Virus record (IMG/VR): IMGVR_UViG_3300025010_000055
Span: 2,970 to 66,969 of that record
From: a virus
Reading direction: 5' to 3' (one strand)
Length of the DNA: 64,000 bases
The translations under genes and the position numbers were made by a program. Under the pieces are notes generated by a model, which did not search any database, had not been told where the DNA came from, and saw only the letters and a program-made list of their open reading frames with translations. Of the stretch, positions 5,598-51,770 are shown one piece after another (the stretch's first letter is position 1; every line of letters starts with the position of its first letter).

Positions 5598-5689
5598 CTA
5601 ACGAAGGTGCGAATTTTAGGTATATAGTTATTTAGTTAGTTGCGATAAGACTCGATATATGGTATAATTAATGACAAATAATCATAAAG

Positions 5690-6532
5690 GTGGTTTTTGT
5701 TATTAATATACTCGAATCGTGGCCTAGATATGAGAGAGATAAGAAATTTCTCAATTATTCGCCGCATACACTAAAGGCATATAAGATACAATGCCGACTT
5801 TTATTTTCAATGCGTTAGGTAAAAACCCCCGACTTCCAGTCGGGACAGCTTTAGCATAAATGGTTGGTGGTATAGTCCATGAAGCATCGGAAAAATCACT
5901 ACATGGTGAGTCCATGTGTTGTAGTTGGTTTTGCGGTAGAAATGCCACTAGGCTACTTATAGATGCTCGCTCTGAAATTGTGAGAAACCTCCCACTACTC
6001 GTAGAAATGCCACTAGGCTACGTATAGAGCCAAGCTTTAAAAATCTACCGATAACATACAGAGTTGCGGTTTAGTATGGTCTGCAAGTTTCAGTTGCAAG
6101 CTTAAGTCTGCTTTAGCAAGAGGACTTCCAGATGACTTTAGTCTTAATTGCGACTTCCAGTCGCTTTTCGAACCCCTGCACTTCTAGTGCAGGGTCGTTG
6201 AGTTTAATTCAAAATGTCTCTTTTGGCTTAAAAAATACGTCGAACTAAGAAACGATAATAGTCCTGCCCTATTTGTTACTGACCGCGCCCCAAGACGTAT
6301 GAGTATAGCGCGTATGAGAGAAATAATTAAGGCGGTTGCTATTCGTGCGGACATTGAAGCAAGTGTCTATCCCCACAGATTAAGACATTCTTATGCCACT
6401 CATTTATTGGACAATGGTGCCCCAATGGAGGCGATACAGCAACTTATGGGGCACGCCAAGCAGGAAACAACCCAAGTGTATGCTCAGCTTTCCGGTGAGC
6501 GCAGAAAAGAATTATATAAGAGGTATTTTTAG
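5690..6532 (+). pseudogene. XerD-like tyrosine recombinase, interrupted by a 398-bp element and lacking its central part
   Basis: N-terminal ESWPRYERDKKFLNYSPHTLKAYKIQCRL before 5805; FNSKCLFWLKKY...YPHRLRHSYATHLLDNG...LMGH...TQVY after 6202. Confidence 0.85.
5805..6202 (+). mobile_element. Non-autonomous IS200/IS605-type element (PATE/MITE-like), copy 1
   Basis: 398 bp; appears identical to the reverse complement of 38542-38939; preceded by TTTAT; subterminal hairpins CCCGACT-TCC-AGTCGGG and CCCTGCAC-TTCTA-GTGCAGGG; no terminal inverted repeats, no target duplication, no transposase. Confidence 0.8.
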
Positions 6533-18805: not shown

Positions 18806-18848
18806 TTCACTCCAAACCTGGTAAAAATAACATACGCGAATTAACTTA

Positions 18849-18899
18849 GCCTCGGAACTATCCGGAAATACCGGACGGTTGCCGGGGCTTTTTTATTTT
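18849..18899 (+). terminator. Terminator of the late operon
   Basis: Long GC hairpin GCCTCGG..TCCGG-AAATA-CCGGA..CCGGGGC followed by a T-run. Confidence 0.75.
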
Positions 18900-18954
18900 C
18901 CGCAGATAATGTATAATAGATGTAGCGCAAATTTGACAACGTGGGGGAACAAAA

Positions 18955-19131
18955 ATGGCAAAGAAAGACGCCGAAATAAGGGGGCGAATCTCGAAAAGAC
19001 TCAAAGAAAGGTTCGTGGCAGCACTCGAAAACGACGGCCTGACTGAATCAGACTGGATTATTGCCAACGTGGTCAGGTACGTAGAAGGGAGGGAGGGAAA
19101 GAAATTCTGGAAAATAAAACGCAAATTCTAA
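18955..19131 (+). CDS. Ribbon-helix-helix-like regulator heading the type IV operon (not in ORF track)
   Basis: MAKKDAEIRGRISKRLKERFVAALENDGLTESDWIIANVVRYVE: beta-alpha-alpha pattern; RBS GGGGG. Confidence 0.65.
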   Translation: MAKKDAEIRGRISKRLKERFVAALENDGLTESDWIIANVVRYVEGREGKKFWKIKRKF

Positions 19132-19817
19132 CGCCAACACAGCTAATTAGACAAGCTGCACTCAAAACCCCAGCTGTGCCCGTGGCTATGGGTAAAACCA
19201 TAGAGTATGCCGATGTGCCACTAGAAACCGTATCAGATCAAAGGTGCTGGCTATGTGGAGGTAAAACGGGGGGACAAGGACAGTCCATCAAGAAAGCTAT
19301 CAAGCCTACCTTTACTGACAGAGACAAGGCCCGCGTACCGCACAGCAATTCTATTTGCCCTGGTTGTGCTTTCTGCTTGTCATATTCACCGCTTAGGAAT
19401 TACAGCATTTTGGCGACGTTGGACGGCCTGAGACACCCTACAAGGCCGGAAGTCAAAGAATTGCTACTAGACCCACCAGAACCGCCTTTTGTGCTATGTA
19501 TTGCAGTGTCAGGGCAGAAGTGGCTACATTTCCGCTCGAAGGTTGCGTATTCAAGGGATGGGTTCCCGGCGCAGTTGGAGGAAACGCCGATATGTGTAGA
19601 GAGGACACTGCTCCGAGAATGGCTAGAAGCTATTGAACACCTTTATACCGTCTTTACCAAGGAGGAAATAAAGACAGGACACTACAGCCAGAACCGGATC
19701 AAGACTTTTGGCCTGTCAGAATTCCAGTTAGTTGACGGGAAAATATCGGGGGTGAGAGGGACAAGGCTTTTTGATTTAGCCGTCTTTGTTGCTCAGAAAA
19801 GAGAGGAGGAAAAATAG
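19107..19817 (+). CDS. csf1: Type IV CRISPR large subunit Csf1 (Cas8-like); probable CTG start at 19107
   Basis: CWLCGG...FTDRD...ICPGCAFC zinc motif, PPEPPFVLCIAVSGQKWLHF; in-frame upstream extension LTPTQLIRQAA after RBS GGAGGG. Confidence 0.85.
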   Translation: MENKTQILTPTQLIRQAALKTPAVPVAMGKTIEYADVPLETVSDQRCWLCGGKTGGQGQSIKKAIKPTFTDRDKARVPHSNSICPGCAFCLSYSPLRNYSILATLDGLRHPTRPEVKELLLDPPEPPFVLCIAVSGQKWLHFRSKVAYSRDGFPAQLEETPICVERTLLREWLEAIEHLYTVFTKEEIKTGHYSQNRIKTFGLSEFQLVDGKISGVRGTRLFDLAVFVAQKREEEK

Positions 19818-20284
19818 TGCATTACAATTTTGACACGACGGATGAGAACGCCGCCACTGCTGCCTTGATGGTGTACGCCGTTTATCGTAGCAGGGACGTT
19901 AAACGGTTTAAAATCAACCCGGAAATGTGGACAAGAATTGAAAACGCCGTGAAATCAGCTGCAAAGCGCGCCGGGGATCTTGGAGATTTCATTGAAAAAT
20001 TGAAACCAAAGCTGCAGTGCGGAACTATTCACCCGCGATGGGCAAAAACAATTCCCGATGGCATGGTAAGTATGCGTGTAATGCCGGACGGATCGGTTAT
20101 CGAAGTGGCAGACAGCGGAAAGAGGCAGTTCCTTACGGACGTTTTGAATGAAGTAGACCACAAAGCGGTTCTAGATCATCTATATCGAAAAACTGCAATT
20201 ACCGTACTATTAGTCAGAGATAGGCAAGAAAGAGAAAAACCTATTGAAGTAAAATTAGGGGAGGATTTTATAAATGTCGAATAG
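19817..20284 (+). CDS. cas11: Type IV small subunit (Cas11-like)
   Basis: 155 aa helical protein between csf1 and csf2; MWTRIENAVKSAA...FIEKLKPKL...LLVRDRQEREK. Confidence 0.7.
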   Translation: MHYNFDTTDENAATAALMVYAVYRSRDVKRFKINPEMWTRIENAVKSAAKRAGDLGDFIEKLKPKLQCGTIHPRWAKTIPDGMVSMRVMPDGSVIEVADSGKRQFLTDVLNEVDHKAVLDHLYRKTAITVLLVRDRQEREKPIEVKLGEDFINVE

Positions 20285-21257
20285 TATTAGATTAGACGGA
20301 AAAATCACATTATTGTCTCCTTTATCCCATATAGGTGAGTCGAGCGGAATTGACAGTTTTTTGTCAACAGATACCGTTATTGGCATGGATGGCAGACCTC
20401 TGGAAGTATTTACCTATAGCGGCAACGCTTTTCGTGGTCAACTCAGGGATCTTGGTGCCTCATATCTCACGGAAAAACTAGGGAATATTAAGTACAGCCC
20501 GGAGCTGTTTTACCTGCTGTTTTCTGGTGGTTCGCTTGGTGGTGCTCAGTCGGTGGACATTGACCAGGCCCGTATGTATCGCAGAAACATTCCGCTGTTA
20601 TCCGTGTTTGGCGGTGGCGTAGGAAATCAGATCCTAACTGGGAAAATAAAAGTTGGGGCTATGTACCCGCTCACGGAAGAATGTCAAAGGATCATCCCGG
20701 AACACCTCAGAGACGAAAATGCGCCAAGCTGGAAGCAATGGACGTTCGACAAGAGCTTTACCCGTATGGACGATGCGAAGAACGAGAATATGAGAAAATA
20801 CCTAACAGGTAGCGAAACAGACGGACTTGCTATAGCCGGACAAGTTGAAGCCGACAGCAAGAAAAAGAAGAAGGAAGATCCCCCGCAGCAAATGCGTTAC
20901 ACGGTGGAAATGCTGGCTGCCGGTGCGGTGATGTATCAGCGGATTGATTTATGCGATTTGTCCGATTTGGAGCTTGGAGCTTTTGTGTCAGCATTAACAA
21001 AATTGTCAGAACATGCCTATATTGGGGGAAAATCAGGTACGGGTCATGGACTTGTAGATATAGAATATACATGGAGAAAAGCCGGTCAAAAAGATTCGGA
21101 AGGTACTTTTTTGAAGATTTCCTCTGACTGTTTGTGGCTGTCGGAACCAGCGGAAGAAGCCAAGAAAACCTATGATCAGTTTTTGGTTGCGTTATACGAT
21201 CGTTATTTGGAGGACAACGCTCCTGAACTGACCAAGTTGTTGACTGGGGGAAAATAA
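20274..21257 (+). CDS. csf2: Type IV backbone protein Csf2 (Cas7 family)
   Basis: ITLLSPLSH, YSGNAFRGQLRD, LFSGGSL, PLLSVFGG, FTRMDD, IGGKSGTGHG RAMP motifs. Confidence 0.92.
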   Translation: MSNSIRLDGKITLLSPLSHIGESSGIDSFLSTDTVIGMDGRPLEVFTYSGNAFRGQLRDLGASYLTEKLGNIKYSPELFYLLFSGGSLGGAQSVDIDQARMYRRNIPLLSVFGGGVGNQILTGKIKVGAMYPLTEECQRIIPEHLRDENAPSWKQWTFDKSFTRMDDAKNENMRKYLTGSETDGLAIAGQVEADSKKKKKEDPPQQMRYTVEMLAAGAVMYQRIDLCDLSDLELGAFVSALTKLSEHAYIGGKSGTGHGLVDIEYTWRKAGQKDSEGTFLKISSDCLWLSEPAEEAKKTYDQFLVALYDRYLEDNAPELTKLLTGGK

Positions 21258-21947
21258 ATGCAGCCTTTGAAAATTACTGCAGTTTTGCAAGACGGCAGAA
21301 TAGCGGGAGTAGATCCATATTTTCCTTTAGATTCCATCATGGCAGCCGAATGGATGCGGAGAAACCATCCTGAAGCATATTACAATGCCAGTAGTCACCT
21401 GTTGACCAATGACATGATCATACCGGATCTGCCGCTGGAGCGTATTGGAGGCGGTGAGGATTGGTACTTTGCTTGTAGCTTCAATACGATCCCGCCAATC
21501 TCTGAATATGTCATGCACTGGCACAAGAGGTTTGACGATCAGCTTGAGCAGCATATCGACTTTGCGGGTAAGCGGGGCAAGGTGGACATTAAATCAGGCA
21601 AAAACAAGGCATACAGGATGCCTTTGGTGGTGCAGTTATTCGATAGGCTAGAATGGTTTGCTGTGGGTGATTTAGAGGCAGTACAGGATTTAGTCTTAGG
21701 CATTACCCACTTAGGAAAGAAAAGTAGCCAGGGGCTTGGAGCGGTAAATTATTGGACTGTTGAGGAATGGCCGGAGGATTGGAGCTTTGTCAGGGACGGT
21801 AAGCTGACCAGGGCCATACCGATCGGTCATGGATTTCCCGTTGGAGTGCAGGTAGCAAAGATGGCTTTGTACGGCATCAGGTCGCCTTACTGGCACACAG
21901 AAAATCAGATGGTTTGCATGATGCCGGAGGTGTTGCAACGTGATTAA
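21258..21947 (+). CDS. csf3: Type IV Csf3 (Cas5 family)
   Basis: PLKITAVL, PLDSIMAA, LPLE, SGKNKAYRMP, LGKKSSQGLGAV G-loop, R.PYW. Confidence 0.88.
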   Translation: MQPLKITAVLQDGRIAGVDPYFPLDSIMAAEWMRRNHPEAYYNASSHLLTNDMIIPDLPLERIGGGEDWYFACSFNTIPPISEYVMHWHKRFDDQLEQHIDFAGKRGKVDIKSGKNKAYRMPLVVQLFDRLEWFAVGDLEAVQDLVLGITHLGKKSSQGLGAVNYWTVEEWPEDWSFVRDGKLTRAIPIGHGFPVGVQVAKMALYGIRSPYWHTENQMVCMMPEVLQRD

Positions 21948-22593
21948 AATAGCTTTGCCCGTCGAATTTAACGACGGCAAACAACTGCATGACGCTACCT
22001 TAAAGCTTATAAGCATGGTATCACCGGCAATAGCAAAAATTATTCACTCAGATCATAATTATAAGCCATTTAGCGTACAATTGCCGAACATTGTTAATAT
22101 CCTTGATCCCGCTTTGGAATCTGTCGCTAATAGTTTTACAAACGTCAAGATACTAAAGCAGTTAAGTTTTGCGGAGTGCTTCGGCGGGGAGCCGGACAAG
22201 TTTCTCAATCTTATATTTAGCCGAACGCTTTTCAGGCATCCAGGTGCAAGCTATCCACTGCCGGATCCGTGGAATGTTATTACCTCTTGGAAAAATCGCT
22301 GGAATAGCATTTCACCCATAAAAGTAACCATTTCCTTACCGATAGCACAAGATCGTAAAAGTGCTCGGGTAGAAATACAGTATATGAAGATTGACACGGC
22401 TAAGATTCAAATTGCAGATTATCGGCCGGTTATTACTTTTAGTGGTCCTGTAAAAATAAAATGGCTCGGTGACGAAAAGGAGCTTCGAGAGCTTTGCGCT
22501 CTGGCCAAATTTGCAGAGTTTGCGGGAACTGGTTCAAAGACTACAATGGGGTGCGGGGTGACTAGCATTGCAGGATTGGCGGGAACTATATAG
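21940..22593 (+). CDS. cas6: Cas6-family endoribonuclease
   Basis: KPFS, PLPDPWNVITSWKNRWN, C-terminal G-rich loop FAEFAGTGSKTTMGCG. Confidence 0.85.
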   Translation: MIKIALPVEFNDGKQLHDATLKLISMVSPAIAKIIHSDHNYKPFSVQLPNIVNILDPALESVANSFTNVKILKQLSFAECFGGEPDKFLNLIFSRTLFRHPGASYPLPDPWNVITSWKNRWNSISPIKVTISLPIAQDRKSARVEIQYMKIDTAKIQIADYRPVITFSGPVKIKWLGDEKELRELCALAKFAEFAGTGSKTTMGCGVTSIAGLAGTI

Positions 22594-23335
22594 ACTGCAC
22601 GCAAAACTGCCAGCGTTCAGGAAACGGCTAGAAAAAACAAAAGCTATCATTTCCGAAGCGTTGCAGTCTATTTCAAAGCCCTACGTTGCAGTCTCCTTTG
22701 GGAAAGACTCTATTGTTCTGACACATCTACTTATTCAGCAGAAAAAAGATATTCCGATAGTCTGGTCAGACCGTGGCCCGGAAGCTGAACTGCCGGAAAC
22801 TTACCCGTACATAGAAAAAATAAAAGCTATGCACGGGATAAACCTGCAGGTTATTTATCCGTCAATGTCGATGTTTGAAATATACAGAAGGTACGGACTG
22901 CCTGAGATAGACGATGGAGTTACAAGGTCTATCGTGAAAGAGGTAAATCTTGTCCTTGCTTTCGCTGAATATGTTCGGATAAACGACATTGACGGGTATT
23001 TTCAAGGACTCAGAGCCGAGGAGAGCAACGGCCGGAGATGGTACGCCAAGAAATACGGACATATCCACTACAGAAAAAGGGACAATCTGATTGTCTGCAA
23101 CCCACTCCTGCACTGGTCAGCAAGGGACATTTGGGGGTATATTGTTAGTCATGACATACCCCACCATCCCGAATATGACAACGAAAGATTTAAAAACCGT
23201 GAAATGATACGGCTGAGCAATTGGAGCGGTCTATATTGGGCGCAAAACGGCAGGATGGCAGAGCTAAGATACTACCATCCTGAGCTTTATCGGCAGTTAG
23301 TTAATGAATTTCCGGAGGTAAAAACATTTGTATAA
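22568..23335 (+). CDS. cysH: PAPS-reductase/CysH-like PP-loop protein
   Basis: YVAVSFGKDS PP-loop, GLRAEESNGR, NPLLHWSARDIWGYI..HDIPHHPEYD. Confidence 0.85.
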   Translation: MQDWRELYRLHAKLPAFRKRLEKTKAIISEALQSISKPYVAVSFGKDSIVLTHLLIQQKKDIPIVWSDRGPEAELPETYPYIEKIKAMHGINLQVIYPSMSMFEIYRRYGLPEIDDGVTRSIVKEVNLVLAFAEYVRINDIDGYFQGLRAEESNGRRWYAKKYGHIHYRKRDNLIVCNPLLHWSARDIWGYIVSHDIPHHPEYDNERFKNREMIRLSNWSGLYWAQNGRMAELRYYHPELYRQLVNEFPEVKTFV

Positions 23336-24257
23336 TTTTTTGTACGGCAATCTAAGGCTAGGGAACTTCCAAAAAGGGATCACGTTGGCCGCGTCCTGGG
23401 CATGGGGAGTTTCTATTATAGTAGGGATGCAAATATTCCAGACAAAGGGTATTGAGTCGTTTGCGATTTGGGCAGCGGCAAACTCCCTTACTTTAGCACT
23501 GTTGGGATGGATATTTACAAAGGTACCTGCAGAAGTGTCAATGCTGTCGGAGCTTATGCCTGCATGGGGCATACCAATATATTCAGCACTCACTTATGCT
23601 ATTCAGTTTTTTTCTGTGCTGGTGAACATAACGGCAATAAAAACAGCGTTTAAGATGCTTGGTTTTGTGGATTATTGGCCCGTGTTCGTTGCCCTGGTAT
23701 TTGCTGGTGTCTTTCTGTGGGGTTTTAGTCATGCGGTTAAGGGGAATATAGTCAAATACTCTTTATGGATGGCTTTGCTTTTATATGTTTTGTGGGTGCC
23801 AGCGCAGGTTAGGCTTATCCAATCAACTACTGCTGACATAAATTTTGCACTGTACGGGGCTTTGATCCTGTTTTGTGCTCCAGTCCTTGATCAGCAGATG
23901 TGGCAACGTAGGAAGGCTTTTGGCGCTGGGATAAAGCCTTTCCTGTGGGCTAGTGGACTGTTTGCGCTTTACATGGTTATGGTAGGTCTGGCAGCTGCTG
24001 TTGGTGTCGGTGGTTATACTGTATCTTTGGTGATACTTCTGGTGGCCGGATCTACTCTGGCAAGTGCCTTGTCTGCTATATCTTGCTATCACAAAACAAA
24101 AAATAGTGCCAGGGTGGGTATGGTGTTAGTATTTTTTTTGGCTGCAACTTGCACTATTTTTAACCTGTCAGTCATTCAAATTTGGGTACTATACGGATCC
24201 CTGAGAATACCGTTTGCTTTGTTTGCTTTCTATAGAATACTTTCCAGGAAGTCTTAG
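23328..24257 (+). CDS. Multi-pass membrane protein resembling a shortened sodium:solute symporter
   Basis: About 10 hydrophobic segments; ITLAASWAWG and LDQQMWQR resemble SSS TM and DQxxxQR motifs; overlaps the cysH stop. Confidence 0.6.
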   Translation: MYNFLYGNLRLGNFQKGITLAASWAWGVSIIVGMQIFQTKGIESFAIWAAANSLTLALLGWIFTKVPAEVSMLSELMPAWGIPIYSALTYAIQFFSVLVNITAIKTAFKMLGFVDYWPVFVALVFAGVFLWGFSHAVKGNIVKYSLWMALLLYVLWVPAQVRLIQSTTADINFALYGALILFCAPVLDQQMWQRRKAFGAGIKPFLWASGLFALYMVMVGLAAAVGVGGYTVSLVILLVAGSTLASALSAISCYHKTKNSARVGMVLVFFLAATCTIFNLSVIQIWVLYGSLRIPFALFAFYRILSRKS

Positions 24258-24286
24258 CCTCCATCTACGGAGGCTTTTTTATTTTT
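24256..24286 (+). terminator. Terminator closing the type IV operon
   Basis: AGCCTCC-ATCTAC-GGAGGCT followed by a T-run. Confidence 0.85.
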
Positions 24287-24382: not shown

Positions 24383-24411
24383 TTGACACGATTTCGAGAC
24401 TGTGGTAATAT
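24383..24411 (+). promoter_or_regulatory. Strong sigmaA promoter, cassette 1
   Basis: TTGACA-17 bp-TAATAT with extended TG and an A/T-rich UP element. Confidence 0.8.
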
Positions 24412-24476
24412 GTATTCAACGGAACGATAGCAGGACAGAAAATAAACGGCCACAGAGCCGAGAGGAGATAAATATT

Positions 24477-24983
24477 ATGACAAAGAAAATCAATTGGGTA
24501 GAAATTTTAGAGCAGAACGAAGAGGCCATTTTGGAGGCAGGACGCCAGGCTTACAGAAACTCTTGCCTAAGCAGTTACGACAACAGCTTCAGCAGCACGG
24601 AAGACGTTGTTATCGACAAGGACGGGGGCATCCGCACAGAGACACAACAGCAGAACTGGCAGAGCATGGACACCTACCACGGCAACGCGATTTGTGTTAT
24701 CAGCTTCAAGAGGTTTTATGTTTGGGAGAACGTGGAAGAAGAAACCGAGATTAAAACTATGTTGGAACCTTCTGAGCTAGAAGAATTCCAAGCCTACCTA
24801 GACGAGAACGAGATAACAAGTTGGGGTATAAGTACAGTACGCGATTGGAATTCAGCTATTGCCGATAGACTTGACAGCGAAATGGGGCAATACGATTATG
24901 ATGCGTATGTCGAGGAGCAGGTTGCTAGTCAGTACGAGCAATGCCTTGAGCGCACCAAAGCCGAAGCTGAATTTTCCGAATAG
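24477..24983 (+). CDS. Very acidic hypothetical protein
   Basis: ATG at 24477 after GAGGAG; D/E-rich; first gene behind the strong promoter. Confidence 0.7.
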   Translation: MTKKINWVEILEQNEEAILEAGRQAYRNSCLSSYDNSFSSTEDVVIDKDGGIRTETQQQNWQSMDTYHGNAICVISFKRFYVWENVEEETEIKTMLEPSELEEFQAYLDENEITSWGISTVRDWNSAIADRLDSEMGQYDYDAYVEEQVASQYEQCLERTKAEAEFSE

Positions 24984-25067
24984 TCCGCTAGGTACAGTCC
25001 CGTGCAGGCCGGGACCGGGGAGAAATCCCCGCTAAGCTTAAGGAGTAAATTAAAGGAGGAATTTTAG

Positions 25068-33685: not shown

Positions 33686-33741
33686 GAGTAACGCATTAAC
33701 GAAGTTAAGAGTAACGCATTAACGAAGTTAAGAGTAACGCA
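33686..33741. repeat. Tandem 23-bp repeat GAGTAACGCATTAACGAAGTTAA x2.4
   Basis: Read directly: 33686-33708, 33709-33731, partial 33732-33741. Confidence 0.95.
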
Positions 33742-34738: not shown

Positions 34739-35944
34739 GTGAGCGAGATAGGCAAAAAGCAAGAAAACGTCCTGGAGGAGGCCTTTCAGGATATCGGAAA
34801 TAGTTTAAAAACCATGTTCCGTCACAGAGACGGATTAAAGATTAACGGTAAGCGGTATGACAGTATAAAAATCCCTTTTCTCAACAAAACAATTTACCTG
34901 GATAATCATATTCCTGGAGCCATCCTTGACACCATCGACAATCTTAATTTGACAGCAAAGGACGGCAGGAAGCCCGCATTAACCAGTAAAAAACGTACTG
35001 AAAACGGTTGGCACCTAACCTTTAGTTTGCCGCCTGGAATCAGCTTTAACCGGGTTAAGCGGTACCGCGAATATTTTGCTGATGCGGTTAATGGGTGGAT
35101 TGATATTACTTGGAATGGAGCGTTGCAAATGAGTATTCACACAGGCCGATTACCTCAAAAGCTAGCTTATTGCTGGGATCCCGGTGATTATACAAGGCTT
35201 TCACTGCCTATACCGGTTGGAGTGAGTCATGGCGGGCCGGTGGTATTTGACCTAACCGAAAGCCCACATTTGCTTGTTGCTGGTGTGCCCGGCTTTGGGA
35301 AGTCGAATTTTTTGCACGTGTTAATCCATAGCCTACTGCCGGTTGCACAGGTGGCCATCGTTGACCTAAAGAGGTTGGAGTTTGCATATCTGCAGGGCCA
35401 TGCTGCACTTGCCAAAACAGAAGCCGATGCCCTAGCGCTGATGCAGGCGCTTAACAGAGAGATGGAAAAGCGGATCGGCATCCTAGAGGCGGCAGGAGTA
35501 GTAAAAATTCAGGACTATAAAGGCAATGACATGCCTTACATCGTCACTGTAATTGATGAATTGGCAGAAATACGAGATGAAAATATAATGGCACTGATAG
35601 ACCGTATAACCAGGTTAGCGCGGGCCGTAGGCATATCAGTGGTGGCTGCAACACAGAGGCCCAGCACTAAGGTTTTGCCTGGTGATACGCGGGCCATGTT
35701 TCAGGCAAGGATCTGTTTTCAGGTAGCGGATGAGCTAAACAGCAGGATGGTCCTGGGTGAAAGTTGCCCATTAGCTGCACAACTGCCCGGCATAAAAGGG
35801 CGTGCCATCTGGAAATTTGGCATAGAGGAAAAGGAAGTGCAGACTATGTTTCTGCCGCTCAAGCAGGCCAAGAAAATGCTGAATAAAAACCCAGTCAGGA
35901 CGTGGGGCTATGAATATGAGACAAAAAGGCTGCCTCCGAGATAA
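34739..35944 (+). CDS. FtsK/SpoIIIE-domain ATPase
   Basis: PHLLVAGVPGFGKS Walker A, VDLK..EF, VIDE Walker B, RAVGI..VAATQRP. Confidence 0.9.
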   Translation: MSEIGKKQENVLEEAFQDIGNSLKTMFRHRDGLKINGKRYDSIKIPFLNKTIYLDNHIPGAILDTIDNLNLTAKDGRKPALTSKKRTENGWHLTFSLPPGISFNRVKRYREYFADAVNGWIDITWNGALQMSIHTGRLPQKLAYCWDPGDYTRLSLPIPVGVSHGGPVVFDLTESPHLLVAGVPGFGKSNFLHVLIHSLLPVAQVAIVDLKRLEFAYLQGHAALAKTEADALALMQALNREMEKRIGILEAAGVVKIQDYKGNDMPYIVTVIDELAEIRDENIMALIDRITRLARAVGISVVAATQRPSTKVLPGDTRAMFQARICFQVADELNSRMVLGESCPLAAQLPGIKGRAIWKFGIEEKEVQTMFLPLKQAKKMLNKNPVRTWGYEYETKRLPPR

Positions 35945-36554
35945 AGCCGTCCTGGAGGCTATAGAAACAAGGAAAGCGCTTAACACTGACCAGATAGCCG
36001 CACTTCTATTCAAAGATGTTACGCACAGCAGGAGAAAAGCACAGGAGCGACTTCTTAAACTATTCAAAGGCGGGAGGGTGAAGAGATGCAGAACGGCACT
36101 GACAGAGCCCTATTGTTATTTCACGGGAAAAAAGAACGGCAGATTAGAACATCTTTTAGCTTTAAATTGGGTTTACGTATGGTTTACGGTTGGCTTAAAA
36201 GCATGGGAGCTGGTGCACTGCTTTAGTTATGAGGCTAACTATAAAATACTGCAGGCAGATGCGTTTGCCGGGATCCGCAATACAGTCACCGGCAAGTTTA
36301 AGTTTTATTTTGTGGAGCTTGACCGGAGTAGTAACGACTTTGACAAGGTACTGAAATACAATCAGCTGTACCATGACGGCGGGCATGGCGGCCAGTGGTG
36401 GGTTAAGTTGTCTGAGCGCTTTCCTGTTGTACTGGTGGTTACTACTACAGCCAAACGGGCCGCACATATACAGCAGCGGGTAAAAAACGAGAATGCTGCG
36501 GGTTTAGAATTTAAGGTTATATTGCTGGATAAAATCAAGGAGGGGTTACTTTGA
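35910..36554 (+). CDS. Replication-relaxation family protein (wHTH plus PD-(D/E)XK-like nuclease)
   Basis: LNTDQIAALLF...AQERLLKL, H.L, ADAF, FVELDRS, K..KY. Confidence 0.8.
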   Translation: MNMRQKGCLRDKAVLEAIETRKALNTDQIAALLFKDVTHSRRKAQERLLKLFKGGRVKRCRTALTEPYCYFTGKKNGRLEHLLALNWVYVWFTVGLKAWELVHCFSYEANYKILQADAFAGIRNTVTGKFKFYFVELDRSSNDFDKVLKYNQLYHDGGHGGQWWVKLSERFPVVLVVTTTAKRAAHIQQRVKNENAAGLEFKVILLDKIKEGLL

Positions 36555-38497: not shown

Positions 38498-38541
38498 TTA
38501 AAATCAGACTTGGCCGTGCGCGTTGCTCGGTCAAGTGAAAA

Positions 38542-38939
38542 CTCAACGACCCTGCACTAGAAGTGCAGGGGTTCGAAAAGCGACTGGAAGTCGCAATTAA
38601 GACTAAAGTCATCTGGAAGTCCTCTTGCTAAAGCAGACTTAAGCTTGCAACTGAAACTTGCAGACCATACTAAACCGCAACTCTGTATGTTATCGGTAGA
38701 TTTTTAAAGCTTGGCTCTATACGTAGCCTAGTGGCATTTCTACGAGTAGTGGGAGGTTTCTCACAATTTCAGAGCGAGCATCTATAAGTAGCCTAGTGGC
38801 ATTTCTACCGCAAAACCAACTACAACACATGGACTCACCATGTAGTGATTTTTCCGATGCTTCATGGACTATACCACCAACCATTTATGCTAAAGCTGTC
38901 CCGACTGGAAGTCGGGGGTTTTTACCTAACGCATTGAAA
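38542..38939 (-). mobile_element. Non-autonomous IS200/IS605-type element, copy 2 (inverted relative to copy 1)
   Basis: Reverse complement of 5805-6202; flanked by ATAAA (TTTAT on the - strand) at 38940-38944. Confidence 0.8.
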
Positions 38940-38964
38940 ATAAAAATTATGGAGGCCAAAACAC

Positions 38965-40760: not shown

Positions 40761-41840
40761 CTAATTGGTGGTCTTTTTGTTTTTCTTTTTAGGGGGACCG
40801 TCAAACATATTTCTAATGTTGTCATCAATCTCAATCTGTCTATCTAGTCCCAGGTGCTGGTACACAGTTTTGAGGATGTTTATATCATGGCCGAGTCTTT
40901 GGGCGGCGTATTGGTCCGGCACTCCTCTGCTGTATAGCCAGCTGGCATGATAGTGCCGGAGATCATGGAAACGTATGTCGGGCAGTTTTTTACGATCAAT
41001 TAGTTCCCCGAAATATCCCGAATAATAGTCAGGCCTTAAATTAAAAATTCGCTGAGTTATAGCGGTTTGATTTTTCCTGAGCGTATCCAAAATACCAAGC
41101 AAGTAGGCGGGAATAACAACATCACGTATACCGTTATCCGACTTAGGCGCCTTGTCCTCGTATTCCTTTTTATCGTTTATGCTGTAACTCTCATCTACCC
41201 TGAGCTTGCCCCTATCCCAGTCAATGTCATTCCACTTAAGCGCAAATATTTCACCCCGGCGAAGTCCGCACCAAGCAGCCAGCAGTACAATAGGTTCGTC
41301 TCTGGTATCCTTTACGGCATCGTGAATTATTTGCATCTCTGTATCTGTTGGTACTTTAGGGACGTGTTTATTTGCCTTAGGTAGTTTTATATCCTTGGCA
41401 GGGCTTTTGCCTTTTAAAGCATCCTCTAGGATACATTTTAGGTTAGACATTATCCGCCTAACGGTGGAATTAGCCTTATCCTTTTGTAGCTCGTTCATAA
41501 ACTGCCTAATGTGGATTTCGGTTATTTGATTAAGTTTAAGTTGGCCGAAATACGGGATATAGTGCGCTGTATAGTAAAACTTATACAGCACGAAGGTACC
41601 GGGAGAAAACCTATTTTTATTAAGCTCTAGCCATTTTTCGCACCAGGCTACCACCCGAATGTTTTCTACGTGCACAAAGGTTCCTTCCTCGATCTCCTGT
41701 TCAATCACTCTGGCAGCCGCCTTGCATTCTTTTAGGGTGGGCTTGGTCACGTACTTAAAAAGCTGCTTACCGTTCGCATCCCTGCCTATAAATATTGTAG
41801 CCTGGTATGTTCCGTTTGGACGTTTTTTAATACTAGCCAT
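40761..41840 (-). CDS. int: Tyrosine integrase
   Basis: GLRRGEIFALKW, FHDLRHYHAS, RLGH...VYQH catalytic motifs; N-terminal arm-binding domain. Confidence 0.95.
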   Translation of the reverse strand: MASIKKRPNGTYQATIFIGRDANGKQLFKYVTKPTLKECKAAARVIEQEIEEGTFVHVENIRVVAWCEKWLELNKNRFSPGTFVLYKFYYTAHYIPYFGQLKLNQITEIHIRQFMNELQKDKANSTVRRIMSNLKCILEDALKGKSPAKDIKLPKANKHVPKVPTDTEMQIIHDAVKDTRDEPIVLLAAWCGLRRGEIFALKWNDIDWDRGKLRVDESYSINDKKEYEDKAPKSDNGIRDVVIPAYLLGILDTLRKNQTAITQRIFNLRPDYYSGYFGELIDRKKLPDIRFHDLRHYHASWLYSRGVPDQYAAQRLGHDINILKTVYQHLGLDRQIEIDDNIRNMFDGPPKKKNKKTTN

Positions 41841-49735: not shown

Positions 49736-50419
49736 ATGCCAGCCTTTATTGATATTACAGGGCAGAAATACGGAAGATTGACAGCTATTAAAATAGTATC
49801 CACTGGAAGTAGAAAGAAAAAAGGCAAATGGCTTTTTAGATGTGACTGTGGAAATGAAATTGTCTGTGCCGCTTGCGGGGTTAAAAGTGGAAATACAAAA
49901 AGTTGTGGATGCTTGAAGCGTGAAAAGTCCCACAAAACCGGAGTAAGAACTATTAAATTAATACATCAAAATCAAATAACTCATAACATGACAGGTAAAC
50001 GTATATACCGAATCTATAAAAATATGAAAACTAGATGCTACAACCCCAAAACAAAGTGTTATCCACATTACGGGGGCAAAGGAATTAAAATTTGTAATGA
50101 ATGGCTTAATGATCCATGCACTTTTATTAATTGGGCACTTAGTCATGGATATAATGATTCTTTAACAATTGACCGTATTGACTCTGACGGTGATTATTGT
50201 CCAGAGAATTGCCGCTTTATAACACAGGCAATGCAAACACAAAATACCTCTCGCAATCGCTTCATTGAGCTAAACGGGGTAAAGAAAACAGTATCTCAGT
50301 GGGCAAGGGAATATGGCATTTCCCCCGATCCGATTTATGAATTAATTGGTAAGGGTATTAGTCCAGTTGATGCAATGTTAAAAAAAATACCCCAGGAGAA
50401 AAACATTGTTACAACTTAG
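49736..50419 (+). CDS. Free-standing HNH-type homing endonuclease
   Basis: DITGQKYGRLT, CDCG, SCGC, YGGKGIKICNEW, TIDRIDSDGDYCPENCR. Confidence 0.85.
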   Translation: MPAFIDITGQKYGRLTAIKIVSTGSRKKKGKWLFRCDCGNEIVCAACGVKSGNTKSCGCLKREKSHKTGVRTIKLIHQNQITHNMTGKRIYRIYKNMKTRCYNPKTKCYPHYGGKGIKICNEWLNDPCTFINWALSHGYNDSLTIDRIDSDGDYCPENCRFITQAMQTQNTSRNRFIELNGVKKTVSQWAREYGISPDPIYELIGKGISPVDAMLKKIPQEKNIVTT

Positions 50420-51770
50420 AGCGTATCAAGAAACATTGATTGAAGGTTCCCGCATTGAATTTAAAAACAATAGAAAGCGTGTCTGCTTAGTGAGTCCATG
50501 CGGGAGTGGAAAAACAATAGTTATGGTTTATATGGCAATGCAGGCAATGTTACGAGGCAACAGCGTGCTCTTTGTGGTGCATCGGCAGGAATTAATTGAA
50601 CAATCTTCAGAAGCATTCAATGACTTTTCTGTGTCACATGGTATTATCGCTGCTGGTTATTCAATGAATGTTTCCGAAAAAATACAGATTGCAAGCATAC
50701 AAACAGTTATTCGTAGATTAAATAAGATAAATGTGCCTAACATTATTATCCTTGATGAGTGCCAGCACAGCCCGGCTGGAACCTGGAGAAAATTATTGGA
50801 TTACTTTCCAAACGCTTTTGTTATTGGGTTGACAGCAACCCCCTGGAGGATGGGTGGTCATGGACTTGGCGATATTTTTGAATCACTTATTATTGGTCCC
50901 AGCGTTAAAGAATTGATTGCGATGGGCAATTTAGCACCTTATCGCTACTACGCTCCTCCTATTGCTGCTGACCTTAATGGTATAAAAGTTAAGTATGGAG
51001 AATTCGATAAAGCCGAAACTTCTTTAAGAATGGATAAGCCTGAAATTATAGGTGATTTGATAGGTAACTATAAAAAACTGGCTCCAAATGCCAGGGCTGT
51101 ATGCTATTGTGCTAGTCGCGCTCATAGCAAACACACAGCTGAAATGTTTAGGCAATATAATATTAGTGCTATTCATATTGATGGAGAAACACCAGCAATT
51201 ATTCGCAAAGCCGCTATTGATGACTTTAGAAACGGCAATATCAAAATATTATGTAATGTTGATTTGGTTAGTGAGGGGCTAAATATTCCCGCTATGGACG
51301 CAGTTATTTTAGCTAGGCCGACTCAAAGTTTAACATTATACATTCAACAAGCAATGCGGTGCTTACGAGCAGACAGCGAGAACCCCACGAAAACCGCTGT
51401 GATAATTGACCATGTGGGCAACTGCTACCGACATGGACTGCCCGACGAGGATCGGGAATGGACGCTGGAAAGTAAGCCGAAAAAGCAGCAGGACAGGTTG
51501 GTTAGTCTGAGGACCTGCCCGAAGTGTTACGGGGCACATAGACCCTGCCCGAAATGTCCTTTGTGCGGCTATGTGTATGTAGCAGAGCGCGAAGGGCCAA
51601 CGCAGAGGAAGGGCAGTCTGGTGGAGATTGACGAACTGGAACGGATACGCAGGAAACAGGAAGTGGGCAGGGCTAGGAGCAGAAAAGACTTGGAGAAGAT
51701 AGCGATTGACCGGGGGTATAAATTAAACTGGATTAATCGCATGGTTGACGTAAAACGAATTAGGGACTAG
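50406..51770 (+). CDS. SF2 DEAD/DEAH-like helicase with a C-terminal Zn ribbon
   Basis: PCGSGKT, DECQH, GLTATP, RPTQS..LYIQQAMR, CPKC..CPLCG. Confidence 0.9.
   Translation: MLQLRAYQETLIEGSRIEFKNNRKRVCLVSPCGSGKTIVMVYMAMQAMLRGNSVLFVVHRQELIEQSSEAFNDFSVSHGIIAAGYSMNVSEKIQIASIQTVIRRLNKINVPNIIILDECQHSPAGTWRKLLDYFPNAFVIGLTATPWRMGGHGLGDIFESLIIGPSVKELIAMGNLAPYRYYAPPIAADLNGIKVKYGEFDKAETSLRMDKPEIIGDLIGNYKKLAPNARAVCYCASRAHSKHTAEMFRQYNISAIHIDGETPAIIRKAAIDDFRNGNIKILCNVDLVSEGLNIPAMDAVILARPTQSLTLYIQQAMRCLRADSENPTKTAVIIDHVGNCYRHGLPDEDREWTLESKPKKQQDRLVSLRTCPKCYGAHRPCPKCPLCGYVYVAEREGPTQRKGSLVEIDELERIRRKQEVGRARSRKDLEKIAIDRGYKLNWINRMVDVKRIRD

What the first reader, a model, noticed from the sequence alone, without database searches (positions are those of the whole stretch)
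18955..24286. Phage-borne, array-less type IV CRISPR-Cas operon: RHH-csf1-cas11-csf2-csf3-cas6-cysH-transporter
Seen: eight overlapping or abutting genes between two terminators, with no cas1/cas2, dinG, nuclease or CRISPR array in the window. Known: subtype IV-B (csf1, cas11, csf2, csf3, cysH-like) occurs on plasmids and prophages, typically without cas6 or arrays, and its function is unresolved. This locus adds an apparently intact Cas6, a dedicated regulator and a membrane transporter. Inference: a distinct IV-B-like variant that could capture host crRNAs (anti-CRISPR sink or retargeting) or steer the CysH-like enzyme to nucleic acid as an RNA-guided modifier.
Basis: partly seen in the sequence, partly recalled or inferred. 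Interest (0 to 1): 0.88.

Follow-up and report, generated by a model that had tools for sequence, protein, structure and literature searches.

The report
Phage type IV-B cassette with Cas6, transporter
A groundwater phage carries a nuclease-free type IV-B CRISPR-like gene set that unusually also has an RNA-cutting Cas6 and a membrane transporter next to the system's unexplained CysH-like enzyme, and that enzyme-transporter pairing recurs in many phages, hinting that the enzyme uses an imported small molecule.

Summary
The operon is real. Window 18955-24257 (+) holds csf1, cas11, csf2, csf3, cas6, a CysH-like PP-loop gene and a 10-helix LeuT/SSS-fold transporter, between two strong terminators. 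It lies in a temperate siphovirus (66,969-bp virus record, groundwater). The leading 58-aa "RHH" ORF is weak and was not found in relatives.

It is a type IV-B variant, not a new type. IV-B with Cas6 is in print as a rare exception (12 instances, PMC7038947). This scan has also reported phage IV-B cassettes with Cas6 on other DNA (e1-6121403).

What I add:
- The compact Cas6 lineage is rare: 4 clusters at E<=1e-30 among 1.84 billion representatives.
- The transporter family lies within about 2.5 kb of a PAPS-reductase-like gene in 27 of 31 phage loci, mostly without any csf gene. So CysH-like enzyme plus transporter is an older module.
- "Array-less" needs a caveat. A 28-nt repeat / 37-nt spacer / repeat unit occurs twice, but as cargo of a 407-bp IS200-type non-autonomous element. 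A copy elsewhere keeps 35 of 37 spacer bases and has no csf genes nearby, so a link to the operon is unproven.

Function remains inferred: an RNA-loaded Csf filament presenting nucleic acid to the CysH-like enzyme.

The parts
18848..18889 (+). intrinsic terminator after the endolysin gene; upstream boundary of the cassette
   Evidence: -26.8 kcal/mol, z -5.3, 0 of 200 shuffles as stable, followed by a U-run (sequence)
18906..18917 (+). promoter-like TG-TATAAT element about 40 nt before the first ORF
   Evidence: read directly. The scan did not list it, so this is inference only.
18955..19131 (+). 58-aa ORF, possible RHH/RelB-like DNA-binding protein (weak)
   Evidence: RelB E 0.0039, below cut-off. 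RelB/DinJ E 0.0057. No homologue in relatives.
19176..19817 (+). csf1 (type IV Cas8-like large subunit) with two Cys-x2-Cys pairs
   Evidence: PDLC01721 5.1e-36. TIGR03114 2e-18. Cys pairs read from the translation.
19817..20284 (+). cas11 (type IV small subunit)
   Evidence: PDLC01696 9.6e-44
20274..21257 (+). csf2 (type IV Cas7 backbone)
   Evidence: PDLC01724 2.1e-69. PDB 7jhy Csf2 (IV-B) 9.9e-17, against IV-A Csf2 entries at 2e-4 to 2e-3.
21258..21947 (+). csf3 (type IV Cas5)
   Evidence: PDLC01727 2.1e-48. TIGR03116 1.4e-15.
21940..22593 (+). compact Cas6 (217 aa) with a G-rich loop and an invariant His36
   Evidence: PF10040 2.4e-12; model pLDDT 83; Foldseek top hits are T. thermophilus Cas6 (1.2e-12, TMq 0.70-0.74). 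H36 and the G-rich loop are invariant in 8 sequences; only 4 clusters at E<=1e-30.
22568..23335 (+). CysH-like PP-loop enzyme (CasCysH type). It has an SFGKDS loop, no C-terminal cysteine and an invariant Cys177.
   Evidence: PF01507 8.9e-23. BrxP 1.8e-16; alignment of 10.
23328..24257 (+). 309-aa, 10-helix LeuT/SSS-fold transporter. It overlaps the cysH-like gene by 8 nt.
   Evidence: pLDDT 94.2. CHT1 8j74 E 3.2e-5, TMq 0.80, then SiaT, AdiC, SGLT2, CodB; atlas rows; linked to PAPS-reductase-like ORFs in 27 of 31 loci.
24256..24275 (+). intrinsic terminator; downstream boundary
   Evidence: -12.7 kcal/mol, z -4.0, U-run
5799..6205 (+). 407-bp non-autonomous IS200/IS605-type element, copy 1, inside a broken tyrosine recombinase gene. 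It carries a 28-nt repeat / 37-nt spacer / 28-nt repeat unit at 5936-6028. Whether it belongs to the system is uncertain.
38539..38945 (-). copy 2 of the same element, 100% identical and inverted, in an intergenic region. The repeat unit lies at 38716-38808.

Best explanation
WHAT IT IS (shown). The cassette is a self-contained accessory ('moron') unit in a temperate siphovirus. It sits between the lysis genes and the lysogeny module, with its own promoter-like element and flanking terminators. It encodes a subtype IV-B effector (Csf1, Cas11, Csf2, Csf3), a lineage-specific compact Cas6, a CasCysH-type PP-loop enzyme that lacks the sulfonucleotide-reductase cysteine, and a minimal LeuT/SSS-fold transporter. 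The cassette moves between otherwise unrelated phages. The CysH-like/transporter pair belongs to a wider phage module.

HOW IT LIKELY WORKS (inferred).
1. Csf2 and Cas11 assemble a filament on RNA, as in the solved IV-B complex.
2. Cas6 supplies or caps that RNA by cutting hairpin-bearing transcripts whose source is not identified.
3. The filament acts as the nucleic-acid-holding partner for the CysH-like enzyme. In most phages that carry the same transporter, ParB-N-domain proteins appear to take this place.
4. The enzyme uses ATP to activate and chemically modify the bound nucleic acid with, or into, a compound derived from a small molecule imported by the transporter.
5. This benefits the prophage or its lysogen in conflicts with host defences or rival elements.
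For: IDENTITY. Family, fold and PDB matches.

PHAGE CONTEXT. Prohead protease, HK97-type capsid, tail tube, amidase, integrase, S24 repressor, ERF and SSB.

BOUNDARIES. Two terminators.

MOBILITY. G000 and G001 share only 6 blastn segments of at least 150 nt, and 4 of them are in or next to the cassette at 71-80% identity. G001 and G002 are one phage of at least 89 kb.

RECURRENCE. The order csf1-cas11-csf2-csf3-cas6-cysH is found in L005/L006, L029, L030, L032, L033 and L036. L034 has cas6 first.

CAS6.
- Full-length relatives form only 4 clusters at E<=1e-30 among 1.84 billion representatives. There is then a gap to 1e-20, where ordinary Cas6 proteins match only the C-terminal half.
- His36 and the G-rich loop are invariant.

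CYSH-LIKE ENZYME. The PP-loop and GxRxxES motif are invariant and there is no C-terminal cysteine. This matches the published CasCysH description (PMC8175902, passages read).

MODULE.
- A transporter homologue lies within about 2.5 kb of a PAPS-reductase-like ORF in 27 of 31 viral loci, and 22 of those also have ParB-like ORFs.
- Pfam confirmed PAPS_reduct (with or without DUF3440) and ParB_N in the 3 loci checked.
- Five of the 31 loci, from 3 lineages, carry or adjoin csf genes.
- The gene order is cysH-transporter here and transporter-cysH in L088/L089.
Against: - No experiment or RNA data bears on any mechanistic step.
- The solved IV-B complex bound heterogeneous RNA without Cas6 (PMC7937560, abstract). 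So guide specificity is not established.
- Three complete relatives with cas6 (G006, G007, G008) have no array-like unit. Cas6 therefore has no visible cognate substrate.
- cas6 and the transporter are each absent from some IV-B lineages (L007, L012; L029-L036), so neither is essential to IV-B function.
- Linkage of the transporter and the PAPS-reductase-like genes is gene-neighbourhood evidence only, and the loci come from one collection with many from one sample series.
- The substrate is unknown, and no Pfam transporter family matched.
Confidence: 0.4

Rival explanations
1. Self-contained RNA-guided silencing. The repeat-spacer-repeat unit on the IS200-type element is the cognate mini-array. 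Cas6 cuts it, and the Csf complex uses the single guide to silence a competitor or host gene, as IV-A systems do by transcriptional repression.
For: - It is the only array-like unit in a phage that encodes Cas6.
- The 28-nt repeat and 37-nt spacer have canonical sizes, and the repeat has a small hairpin followed by 7-8 nt.
- It is non-coding and lies downstream of what corresponds to the tnpA promoter region of full-length elements, and upstream of a hairpin with a U-run.
- There is a precedent for IV-B with a two-repeat mini-array in archaeal viruses (PMC10541130).
Against: - The unit is cargo of a mobile element 13-14 kb from the operon.
- A 93%-identical copy in another contig keeps 35 of 37 spacer bases, and the 9.2 kb held around it has no csf genes. 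So there is no spacer turnover and no linkage.
- No protospacer was found in G000, in 1.6 Mb of fetched loci, or in viral contigs for the 22-nt core.
- The 5' likeness to the repeat beside the nearest cellular Cas6 relatives is at chance level (28% of shuffles).
- Three complete cas6-bearing relatives lack any such unit.
Confidence: 0.15
2. crRNA sponge or hijack. Cas6 and the Csf complex capture host pre-crRNA or crRNA, either blocking host CRISPR immunity or retargeting it. The CysH-like enzyme and the transporter are bystanders or inactivate the captured RNA.
For: - There is no cognate array in most relatives.
- The idea has been proposed in the literature (PMC7038947, PMC8175902; passages read).
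- The host of one relative carries Cas1 (G010).
Against: - The authors of PMC7038947 themselves call it unlikely.
- It does not explain the near-invariant CysH-like partner or its transporter linkage.
- The relative's host G010 has no other Cas6 of this family, and no host repeat was matched.
- The solved IV-B complex did not take up co-expressed I-E crRNA (PMC8175902, passage).
Confidence: 0.15
3. The repeat unit is a viral crRNA-like regulatory RNA (Cracr type). It loads host Cas proteins and represses host cas or toxin genes, independently of the phage's IV-B genes.
For: - The class is published (bioRxiv 10.1101/2024.10.29.618823, abstract read).
- It is a one-spacer unit with a conserved 'spacer' between copies.
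- An earlier scan report reached this reading for a Heyndrickxia phage (e1-5343625; not checked here).
Against: - No host array with this repeat was found. The exact 21-mer gave 0 hits in viral contigs and metagenome contigs.
- In 401 genomes of the phylum of a Desulfotomaculum MAG there were 5 single hits at 3 mismatches, against 12 control hits by my count.
- No target was identified.
Confidence: 0.15
4. Two independent cargoes. The CysH-like/transporter pair is a metabolic or DNA-modification moron that merely sits beside the Csf genes, and the Csf/Cas6 set works without it.
For: The pair occurs without csf genes in most loci. The transporter is absent from the Bacillaceae-phage clade.
Against: - cysH-like is 'nearly invariant' with IV-B in the literature (PMC7038947).
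- Here it overlaps cas6 by 26 nt and the transporter by 8 nt within one terminator-bounded unit.
- In L088/L089 the transporter sits between csf3 and cysH.
Confidence: 0.15

Closest known systems
Subtype IV-B CRISPR-Cas (Mycobacterium sp. JS623 plasmid system, PDB 7jhy; Zhou et al. 2021, PMC7937560; Taylor et al. 2021, PMC8175902)
   Same: csf1, cas11, csf2, csf3 and a CysH-like PP-loop gene without the catalytic cysteine. There is no helicase, nuclease or adaptation genes. It is carried on a mobile element. Csf2 matches 7jhy at 9.9e-17.
   Different: It has a Cas6, a LeuT-fold transporter and a small upstream ORF, and it is carried by a temperate siphovirus rather than a plasmid. The NCBIfam equivalog cut-offs are not reached.
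The 12 Cas6-bearing IV-B loci noted by Pinilla-Redondo et al. 2020 (PMC7038947)
   Same: A IV-B gene set that exceptionally encodes Cas6.
   Different: I could not see their list (Supplementary Data S1; supplements are closed), so I cannot say whether this compact Cas6 lineage is among them. No transporter is mentioned in the passages read.
Fuxiviridae (Bathyarchaeia viruses) type IV-B with a mini-array (PMC10541130)
   Same: Virus-borne IV-B with CysH-like, plus a two-repeat, one-spacer unit in the genome and no protospacer found.
   Different: There the mini-array lies in the cas locus. Here it rides on an IS200-type element 13-14 kb away, in two copies. The host domain differs.
Phage PAPS-reductase/ParB-N modules (IbrA/IbrB-like; the name is recalled, not from a call)
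   Same: A PAPS_reduct-domain enzyme encoded next to the same transporter family.
   Different: Those loci pair the enzyme with ParB_N proteins and often DUF3440. Here the neighbours are Csf proteins and Cas6. Sequence similarity between the two enzyme groups is low (no tblastn hit at 1e-3).
Type IV-A CRISPR-Cas (Csf5/Cas6, DinG, array)
   Same: A type IV effector with a Cas6-family RNase.
   Different: No DinG and no adjacent array; Cas11 and CysH-like are present. Csf2 is far closer to IV-B/IV-C structures than to IV-A. The IV-A Cas6 (6njy) is only rank 10 by fold.

Membership tests
Subtype IV-B CRISPR-Cas | csf1, csf2 and csf3 effector genes | tested here: met
   PADLOC 5.1e-36, 2.1e-69 and 2.1e-48. 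NCBIfam hits are significant but under the equivalog cut-offs.
Subtype IV-B CRISPR-Cas | cas11-like small subunit | tested here: met
   PDLC01696 9.6e-44
Subtype IV-B CRISPR-Cas | adjacent cysH-like gene with a PP-loop and no catalytic C-terminal cysteine | tested here: met
   PF01507 8.9e-23. SFGKDS loop, with the only Cys at position 177. Criterion taken from PMC8175902.
Subtype IV-B CRISPR-Cas | no DinG/RecD helicase, Cas10-HD or adaptation genes | tested here: met
   None in the operon or in 40 other window ORFs. The SNF2-type helicase at 50406-51770 belongs to the replication module.
Subtype IV-B CRISPR-Cas | typical absence of cas6 and of any CRISPR array | tested here: not met
   cas6 is present. 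A two-repeat unit is present elsewhere in the genome. Hence a variant, not a typical member.
Subtype IV-B CRISPR-Cas | Csf2 falls in the IV-B clade of a Csf2 tree | not tested
   Only PDB E-values are available: IV-B 7jhy 9.9e-17, Cas7c 11fs 1.5e-16, IV-A 2e-4 or weaker. No reference set was at hand for a tree.
Cas6 endoribonuclease | double-RRM Cas6 fold with a C-terminal G-rich loop | tested here: met
   37 PDB matches at E<=0.001, with Cas6 chains on top. GxGxKxxMGxG is invariant.
Cas6 endoribonuclease | catalytic histidine | tested here: inconclusive
   His36 is invariant in 8 of 8 sequences. A top fold match is titled 'H37A mutant', but no residue-level superposition was available.
Cas6 endoribonuclease | a cognate repeat next to or co-varying with the gene | tested here: not met
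   No array within 10 kb in any relative. The repeat likeness to the L039 array is at chance level.
Sodium:solute symporter / LeuT-fold (APC) transporters | 5+5 inverted-repeat helical core | tested here: met
   Model pLDDT 94.2. CHT1 TMq 0.80, then SiaT, SGLT2, AdiC, CodB and Mhp1.
Sodium:solute symporter / LeuT-fold (APC) transporters | sequence membership of Pfam SSF (PF00474) | tested here: not met
   No Pfam or NCBIfam hit at E<=1. There is only an atlas row in which 36% of members carry SSF.
IS200/IS605-type non-autonomous element (the 407-bp arms) | ends shared with elements that encode a Y1 transposase; subterminal hairpins; insertion 3' of a fixed short motif; no terminal inverted repeats | tested here: met
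   - Six roughly 700-bp relatives share the left 60 nt and the right 70-170 nt, and the three I read (L118, L119, L120) carry an IS200-type TnpA ORF.
- TTTAT precedes 5 of 6 distinct copies read; L123 has CTTAT.
- There is no Y1_Tnp in G000.
Mini-CRISPR array / crRNA-like RNA | two or more repeats of CRISPR size around a spacer, in non-coding DNA | tested here: met
   28-nt repeats at 65-nt spacing, with 0 chance matches expected.
Mini-CRISPR array / crRNA-like RNA | repeat shared with a bona fide array or a cas-adjacent position; spacer differs between copies or matches a target | tested here: not met
   No array with this repeat was found. The spacer is 35/37 identical in L123. No target was found.
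RHH / RelB-DinJ DNA-binding proteins (58-aa ORF) | profile match above threshold | tested here: inconclusive
   17.5 bits against a cut-off of 22.4. Not conserved upstream of csf1 in L005.

The most novel reading that the evidence does not exclude
Type IV-B systems descend from, or plug into, an older phage module in which a PAPS-reductase-like PP-loop enzyme modifies nucleic acid using a compound imported by a dedicated LeuT-fold transporter. In that module the Csf filament has taken the place of ParB-like proteins as the part that holds the target. In the Cas6-bearing lineage the filament is programmed by Cas6-cut RNAs. Here one such guide is supplied by a crRNA-like unit that travels on an IS200-type element. 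That would make this an RNA-guided nucleic-acid modification system whose guide is itself mobile.
Probability: 0.12. Interest if true: 0.9.

Novelty: new variant of a known kind. Interest (0 to 1): 0.55.

Why it matters
What subtype IV-B does has been open since it was defined. The published reviews point to the CysH-like gene as the key (PMC7038947, PMC8175902).

Two handles come out of this locus. The first is a rare, compact Cas6 that should mark which RNAs the complex is meant to carry. The second is a transporter that is linked to PAPS-reductase-like genes in 27 of 31 phage loci, with or without Csf genes. That linkage predicts that the enzyme needs an imported small molecule.

Both predictions can be tested with ordinary expression, RNP pull-down, uptake and LC-MS experiments.

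The search for IV-B, cysH, transporter and CRISPR together returned no paper. That search covers open-access text only.

Tried and rejected
REPEAT AND SPACER SEARCHES.
- The exact 21-nt repeat core gave 0 hits in viral contigs and 0 in metagenome contigs. The L123 copy differs by one base in each repeat, so exact search was too strict.
- The 22-nt spacer core gave 0 hits in viral contigs.
- The 407-bp arm against GenBank phages in distant mode gave no match.
- An Rfam E-value scan of the arm and of the G002 repeat cluster gave nothing relevant.
- In 401 genomes of one phylum, 5 had single 3-mismatch hits, against 12 control hits by my count. This is chance level.

LIKENESS TO A CELLULAR CAS6 ARRAY. 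The 5' likeness of the repeat to the array repeat beside the nearest cellular Cas6 relatives (L039) looked striking. It was rejected because 28% of shuffled repeats score as well.

LIKENESS TO THE G002 CLUSTER. I considered that the G000 repeats and the six degenerate repeats of G002 form one family. I do not rely on this. The alignment is weak, and the G002 cluster has no relative in any locus held.

OTHER CAS6 AND TRANSPOSASE SEARCHES.
- The Cas6 single-sequence scan of viral contigs found no relative. The alignment-based scan did.
- The Y1 transposase family was not found in G000.

SEQUENCING RUNS.
- No RNA holder was listed; there were 4 DNA rows from one groundwater study.
- In read laying the contigs stop 30 letters into the arm on both sides, so by the tool's 31-letter rule none bridges a junction.
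- Loose ends show the flanks of the second copy and, at 5853, a continuation that matches the full-length IS. I use this only as a sign that both contexts and the autonomous element are in the samples.

COMPLEX PREDICTION. Complex prediction for the CysH-like enzyme with the transporter gave no verdict (score 0.00 against a mark of 0.32; controls not run).

LITERATURE. The searches for IbrA/IbrB and for DUF3440 with ParB gave nothing usable. The IbrA/IbrB name in this report is recalled.

- Supplements were closed, so the list of 12 Cas6-bearing IV-B loci in PMC7038947 was not seen.

Full report
WHAT IS THERE

Window 18955-24257 carries eight + strand ORFs that abut or overlap.
- Profile searches identify csf1, cas11, csf2 and csf3 of type IV with PADLOC E-values of 5e-36 to 2e-69.
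- They also identify a Cas6 (PF10040, 2.4e-12) and a PAPS-reductase-family gene (PF01507, 8.9e-23).
- The NCBIfam Csf models hit at 1e-15 to 2e-18, below their equivalog cut-offs. So this is a diverged lineage.
- Csf2 matches the solved IV-B Csf2 (7jhy, 9.9e-17) and a Cas7c chain (11fs, 1.5e-16) far better than IV-A Csf2 chains (2e-4 or weaker).
- The first ORF (58 aa) has only a sub-threshold RelB-like hit. It has no counterpart upstream of csf1 in any relative.
- Both flanking terminators fold well beyond shuffled controls. A TG-TATAAT element and a GGGGGA ribosome-binding site precede the first ORF (read by eye).

THE LAST GENE

It has no family hit. Its model, built from 36 homologues, is confident (pLDDT 94.2).
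- The model matches LeuT-fold transporters, with sodium:solute symporter members first (CHT1 TMq 0.80; SiaT, SGLT2, NIS), followed by AdiC, CodB and Mhp1.
- The atlas places it among phage 'putative transporter' clusters.
It is not shown at family level.

THE CAS6

The model (pLDDT 83) matches Thermus thermophilus Cas6A/B and Streptococcus thermophilus Cas6 (E about 1e-12). The IV-A Cas6 ranks tenth.
- His36 and the glycine-rich loop are invariant in eight sequences.
- A profile search of 1.84 billion representatives found only 4 clusters at E<=1e-30. There is then a gap to 1e-20, where ordinary, longer Cas6 proteins align only with the C-terminal half.
- This is a rare, compact Cas6 lineage.

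THE CYSH-LIKE PROTEIN

It has the PP-loop SFGKDS and the GxRxxES motif, and no cysteine near the C-terminus. That matches the published description of CasCysH (PMC8175902). Cys177 is invariant in ten sequences. I have no explanation for it.

CONTEXT

The window is almost all of a 66,969-bp virus record rated 83% complete.
- Pfam shows a temperate siphovirus: prohead protease, HK97-type capsid, tail tube, Amidase_3 endolysin, integrase, S24 repressor, Bro-N, ERF, SSB, an SNF2-type helicase, a DUF927 primase, methylase, VRR-NUC and HNH.
- None of the 40 ORFs scanned has a Cas1, Cas2, DinG, Cas3 or Cas10 domain.
- The cassette follows the endolysin, a usual place for accessory genes.
- The amidase's best named relatives are from Desulforamulus, Heliobacterium and Peptococcaceae. 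The DNA was found in four rows of one groundwater study.

RELATIVES

A Csf2 scan of viral contigs gave 9 loci from 17 candidates. A Cas6-alignment scan gave 8 from 141 candidates. A genome scan gave 35 from 105 candidates, of which three are close (L034 at 52% identity; Heyndrickxia coagulans and Weizmannia acidilactici at 36-38%).

The gene orders are as follows.
- G001/G002, which are one phage of at least 89 kb, have the same seven genes. Identity is 81-91% for most proteins but only 55% for Cas6 and 54% for the transporter.
- L034 (also L011 and L090) has cas6 first, then csf1-cas11-csf2-csf3, a second csf1/csf3 pair, cysH and the transporter.
- The Bacillaceae-phage clade (L029, L030, L032, L033, L036, and partly L013 and L035) has csf1-cas11-csf2-csf3-cas6-cysH without the transporter.
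- L007 and L012 go from csf3 straight to cysH.
- L088/L089 have the transporter between csf3 and cysH and no cas6.

G000 and G001 share almost nothing at nucleotide level except the cassette, so the cassette moves as a unit. Only 1 of 50,697 GenBank phage records has a Csf2 match (Skermania phage SPI1, 28%).

THE TRANSPORTER AND THE ENZYME

An alignment-based scan found the transporter family in 31 viral loci, from 58 candidates.
- I used phmmer with three Pfam-verified PAPS_reduct ORFs plus the window's own, against stop-to-stop ORFs of 70 aa or more. A PAPS-reductase-like ORF lies within about 2.5 kb in 27 of the 31 loci.
- Of the 4 without one, two end at the contig edge right after the transporter (L075, L083), one is a fragment (L098), and one has none in 14 kb (L080).
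- ParB-like ORFs flank in 22 loci, typically in the order transporter-ParB-PAPS-ParB. Pfam confirmed PAPS_reduct (once with DUF3440) and ParB_N in the three loci checked.
- Only five of the 31 loci, from three lineages, carry or adjoin csf genes.

So the CysH-like enzyme and this transporter form a pair that exists independently of type IV genes. The simplest reading is that the transporter brings in what the enzyme uses. This rests on neighbourhood evidence from one collection.

IS IT ARRAY-LESS?

No multi-repeat array exists in the record. A 407-bp perfect inverted repeat does exist, with arms at 5799-6205 and 38539-38945. Each arm holds two 28-nt repeats 65 nt apart around a 37-nt unique stretch.
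I tested that proposal.
- A scan for the left-end hairpin found 11 metagenome loci.
- Six of them are roughly 700-bp elements with the same ends around an IS200-type Y1 transposase ORF.
- One, L123, is a 93%-identical 407-bp copy in unrelated flanks.
- Copy 1 in the phage sits inside a truncated tyrosine recombinase gene.
- The arms are therefore a non-autonomous IS200-type element in which the transposase gene is replaced by the repeat-spacer-repeat unit.

The L123 copy keeps 35 of 37 spacer bases, and the 9.2 kb held around it has no csf genes.
- No protospacer was found.
- No array with this repeat was found.
- The likeness to a cellular Cas6-associated repeat is at chance level.
- Three complete cas6-bearing relatives have no such unit.

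The unit has the form of a mini-array, but nothing ties it to this operon. It could equally be a crRNA-like regulatory RNA aimed at host Cas proteins (bioRxiv 10.1101/2024.10.29.618823, abstract), or simply passenger sequence.

HOW IT LIKELY WORKS

Shown: the parts list, the operon boundaries, the cassette's mobility, the rarity of the Cas6 lineage and the enzyme-transporter linkage.

Inferred, at about 40% for the outline:
- A Csf2/Cas11 filament forms on RNA, as in 7jhy (PMC7937560, abstract).
- Cas6 supplies or caps that RNA.
- The CysH-like ATP-using enzyme acts on the nucleic acid held by the filament, using a compound imported by the transporter.
- The Csf complex takes the place that ParB-like proteins appear to hold in the csf-less modules.

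The rivals are a self-contained guide from the mobile unit, a crRNA sponge or hijack, an independent Cracr-like RNA, and unrelated neighbouring cargoes. Each keeps about 15%.

COMPARISON AND NOVELTY

By its defining genes this is subtype IV-B. It departs from the typical member by having Cas6.
- Cas6 in IV-B is in print as a rare exception (12 instances, PMC7038947). I could not see the list.
- Virus-borne IV-B and IV-B with a mini-array are also in print (PMC10541130).
- This scan has already reported phage IV-B cassettes, one of them with Cas6, on other DNA (e1-6121403 and others).
- New, as far as my searches reach, are the transporter linkage and the delimitation of the compact Cas6 lineage.

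I class it as a new variant of a known kind, with moderate interest.

Noticed in passing
window 24980-25050 (+): Twister-sister ribozyme match (RF02681, 40.5 bits against a gathering score of 34, E 1.7e-5). It lies at the end of ORF 24402-24983, about 0.7 kb downstream of the cassette.
   Followed up: no
window 5675-5798 and 6206-6532 (+): A tyrosine recombinase gene is split by IS-element copy 1. Only about 40 N-terminal and 114 C-terminal residues remain. The C-terminal piece matches PF00589 positions 67-169 of 172, so roughly 130 codons are missing. A second, intact integrase lies at 40761-41840 (-).
   Followed up: partly
L020 7461-7870 (the G002 record, 4.7 kb downstream of its IV-B cassette): Six degenerate CRISPR-like repeats of 37-43 nt lie in a 680-bp non-coding gap. 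They have GTTGCA/GTTACA/GTAGC starts, a hairpin whose stem changes in a compensatory way, and GAAAC/GGAAC ends. The spacers are irregular (16, 29, 42, 9 and 72 nt). No relative was found in any locus held. Unexplained.
   Followed up: partly
L071-L099 (viral contigs): The recurrent phage module transporter - ParB_N - PAPS_reduct (with or without DUF3440) - ParB_N was seen in 22 loci, without any csf gene. Its function is not known to me.
   Followed up: partly
L034 10305-11598 and L011 10503-11976: A second, diverged csf1/csf3 pair (41% and 34% identity to the window's proteins) directly follows csf3 in this lineage. cas6 lies upstream of csf1. L034's record is labelled as a Saccharibacteria MAG, but the contig looks phage-like.
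   Followed up: no
window 34739-36554 (+): FtsK/SpoIIIE-family ATPase and Replic_Relax genes, which are typical of conjugative or plasmid-like elements (recalled), lie inside the phage's accessory region.
   Followed up: no
window 33686-33741 (+) and L020 14216-14258: A perfect 23-nt tandem repeat (2.4 copies) in G000 has a near-identical 20-nt repeat in the otherwise unrelated G002 phage. It may be a shared operator or origin element.
   Followed up: no
window 22568-23335, residue 177: Cys177 of the CysH-like protein (a C-x-P motif) is invariant in 10 of 10 IV-B-linked homologues, although the canonical C-terminal catalytic cysteine is absent.
   Followed up: no
window 5853 (read laying loose end): In the same groundwater runs a contig shares the element's left end up to 5853. 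It then continues with sequence that matches the full-length, transposase-bearing IS seen in L118.
   Followed up: partly
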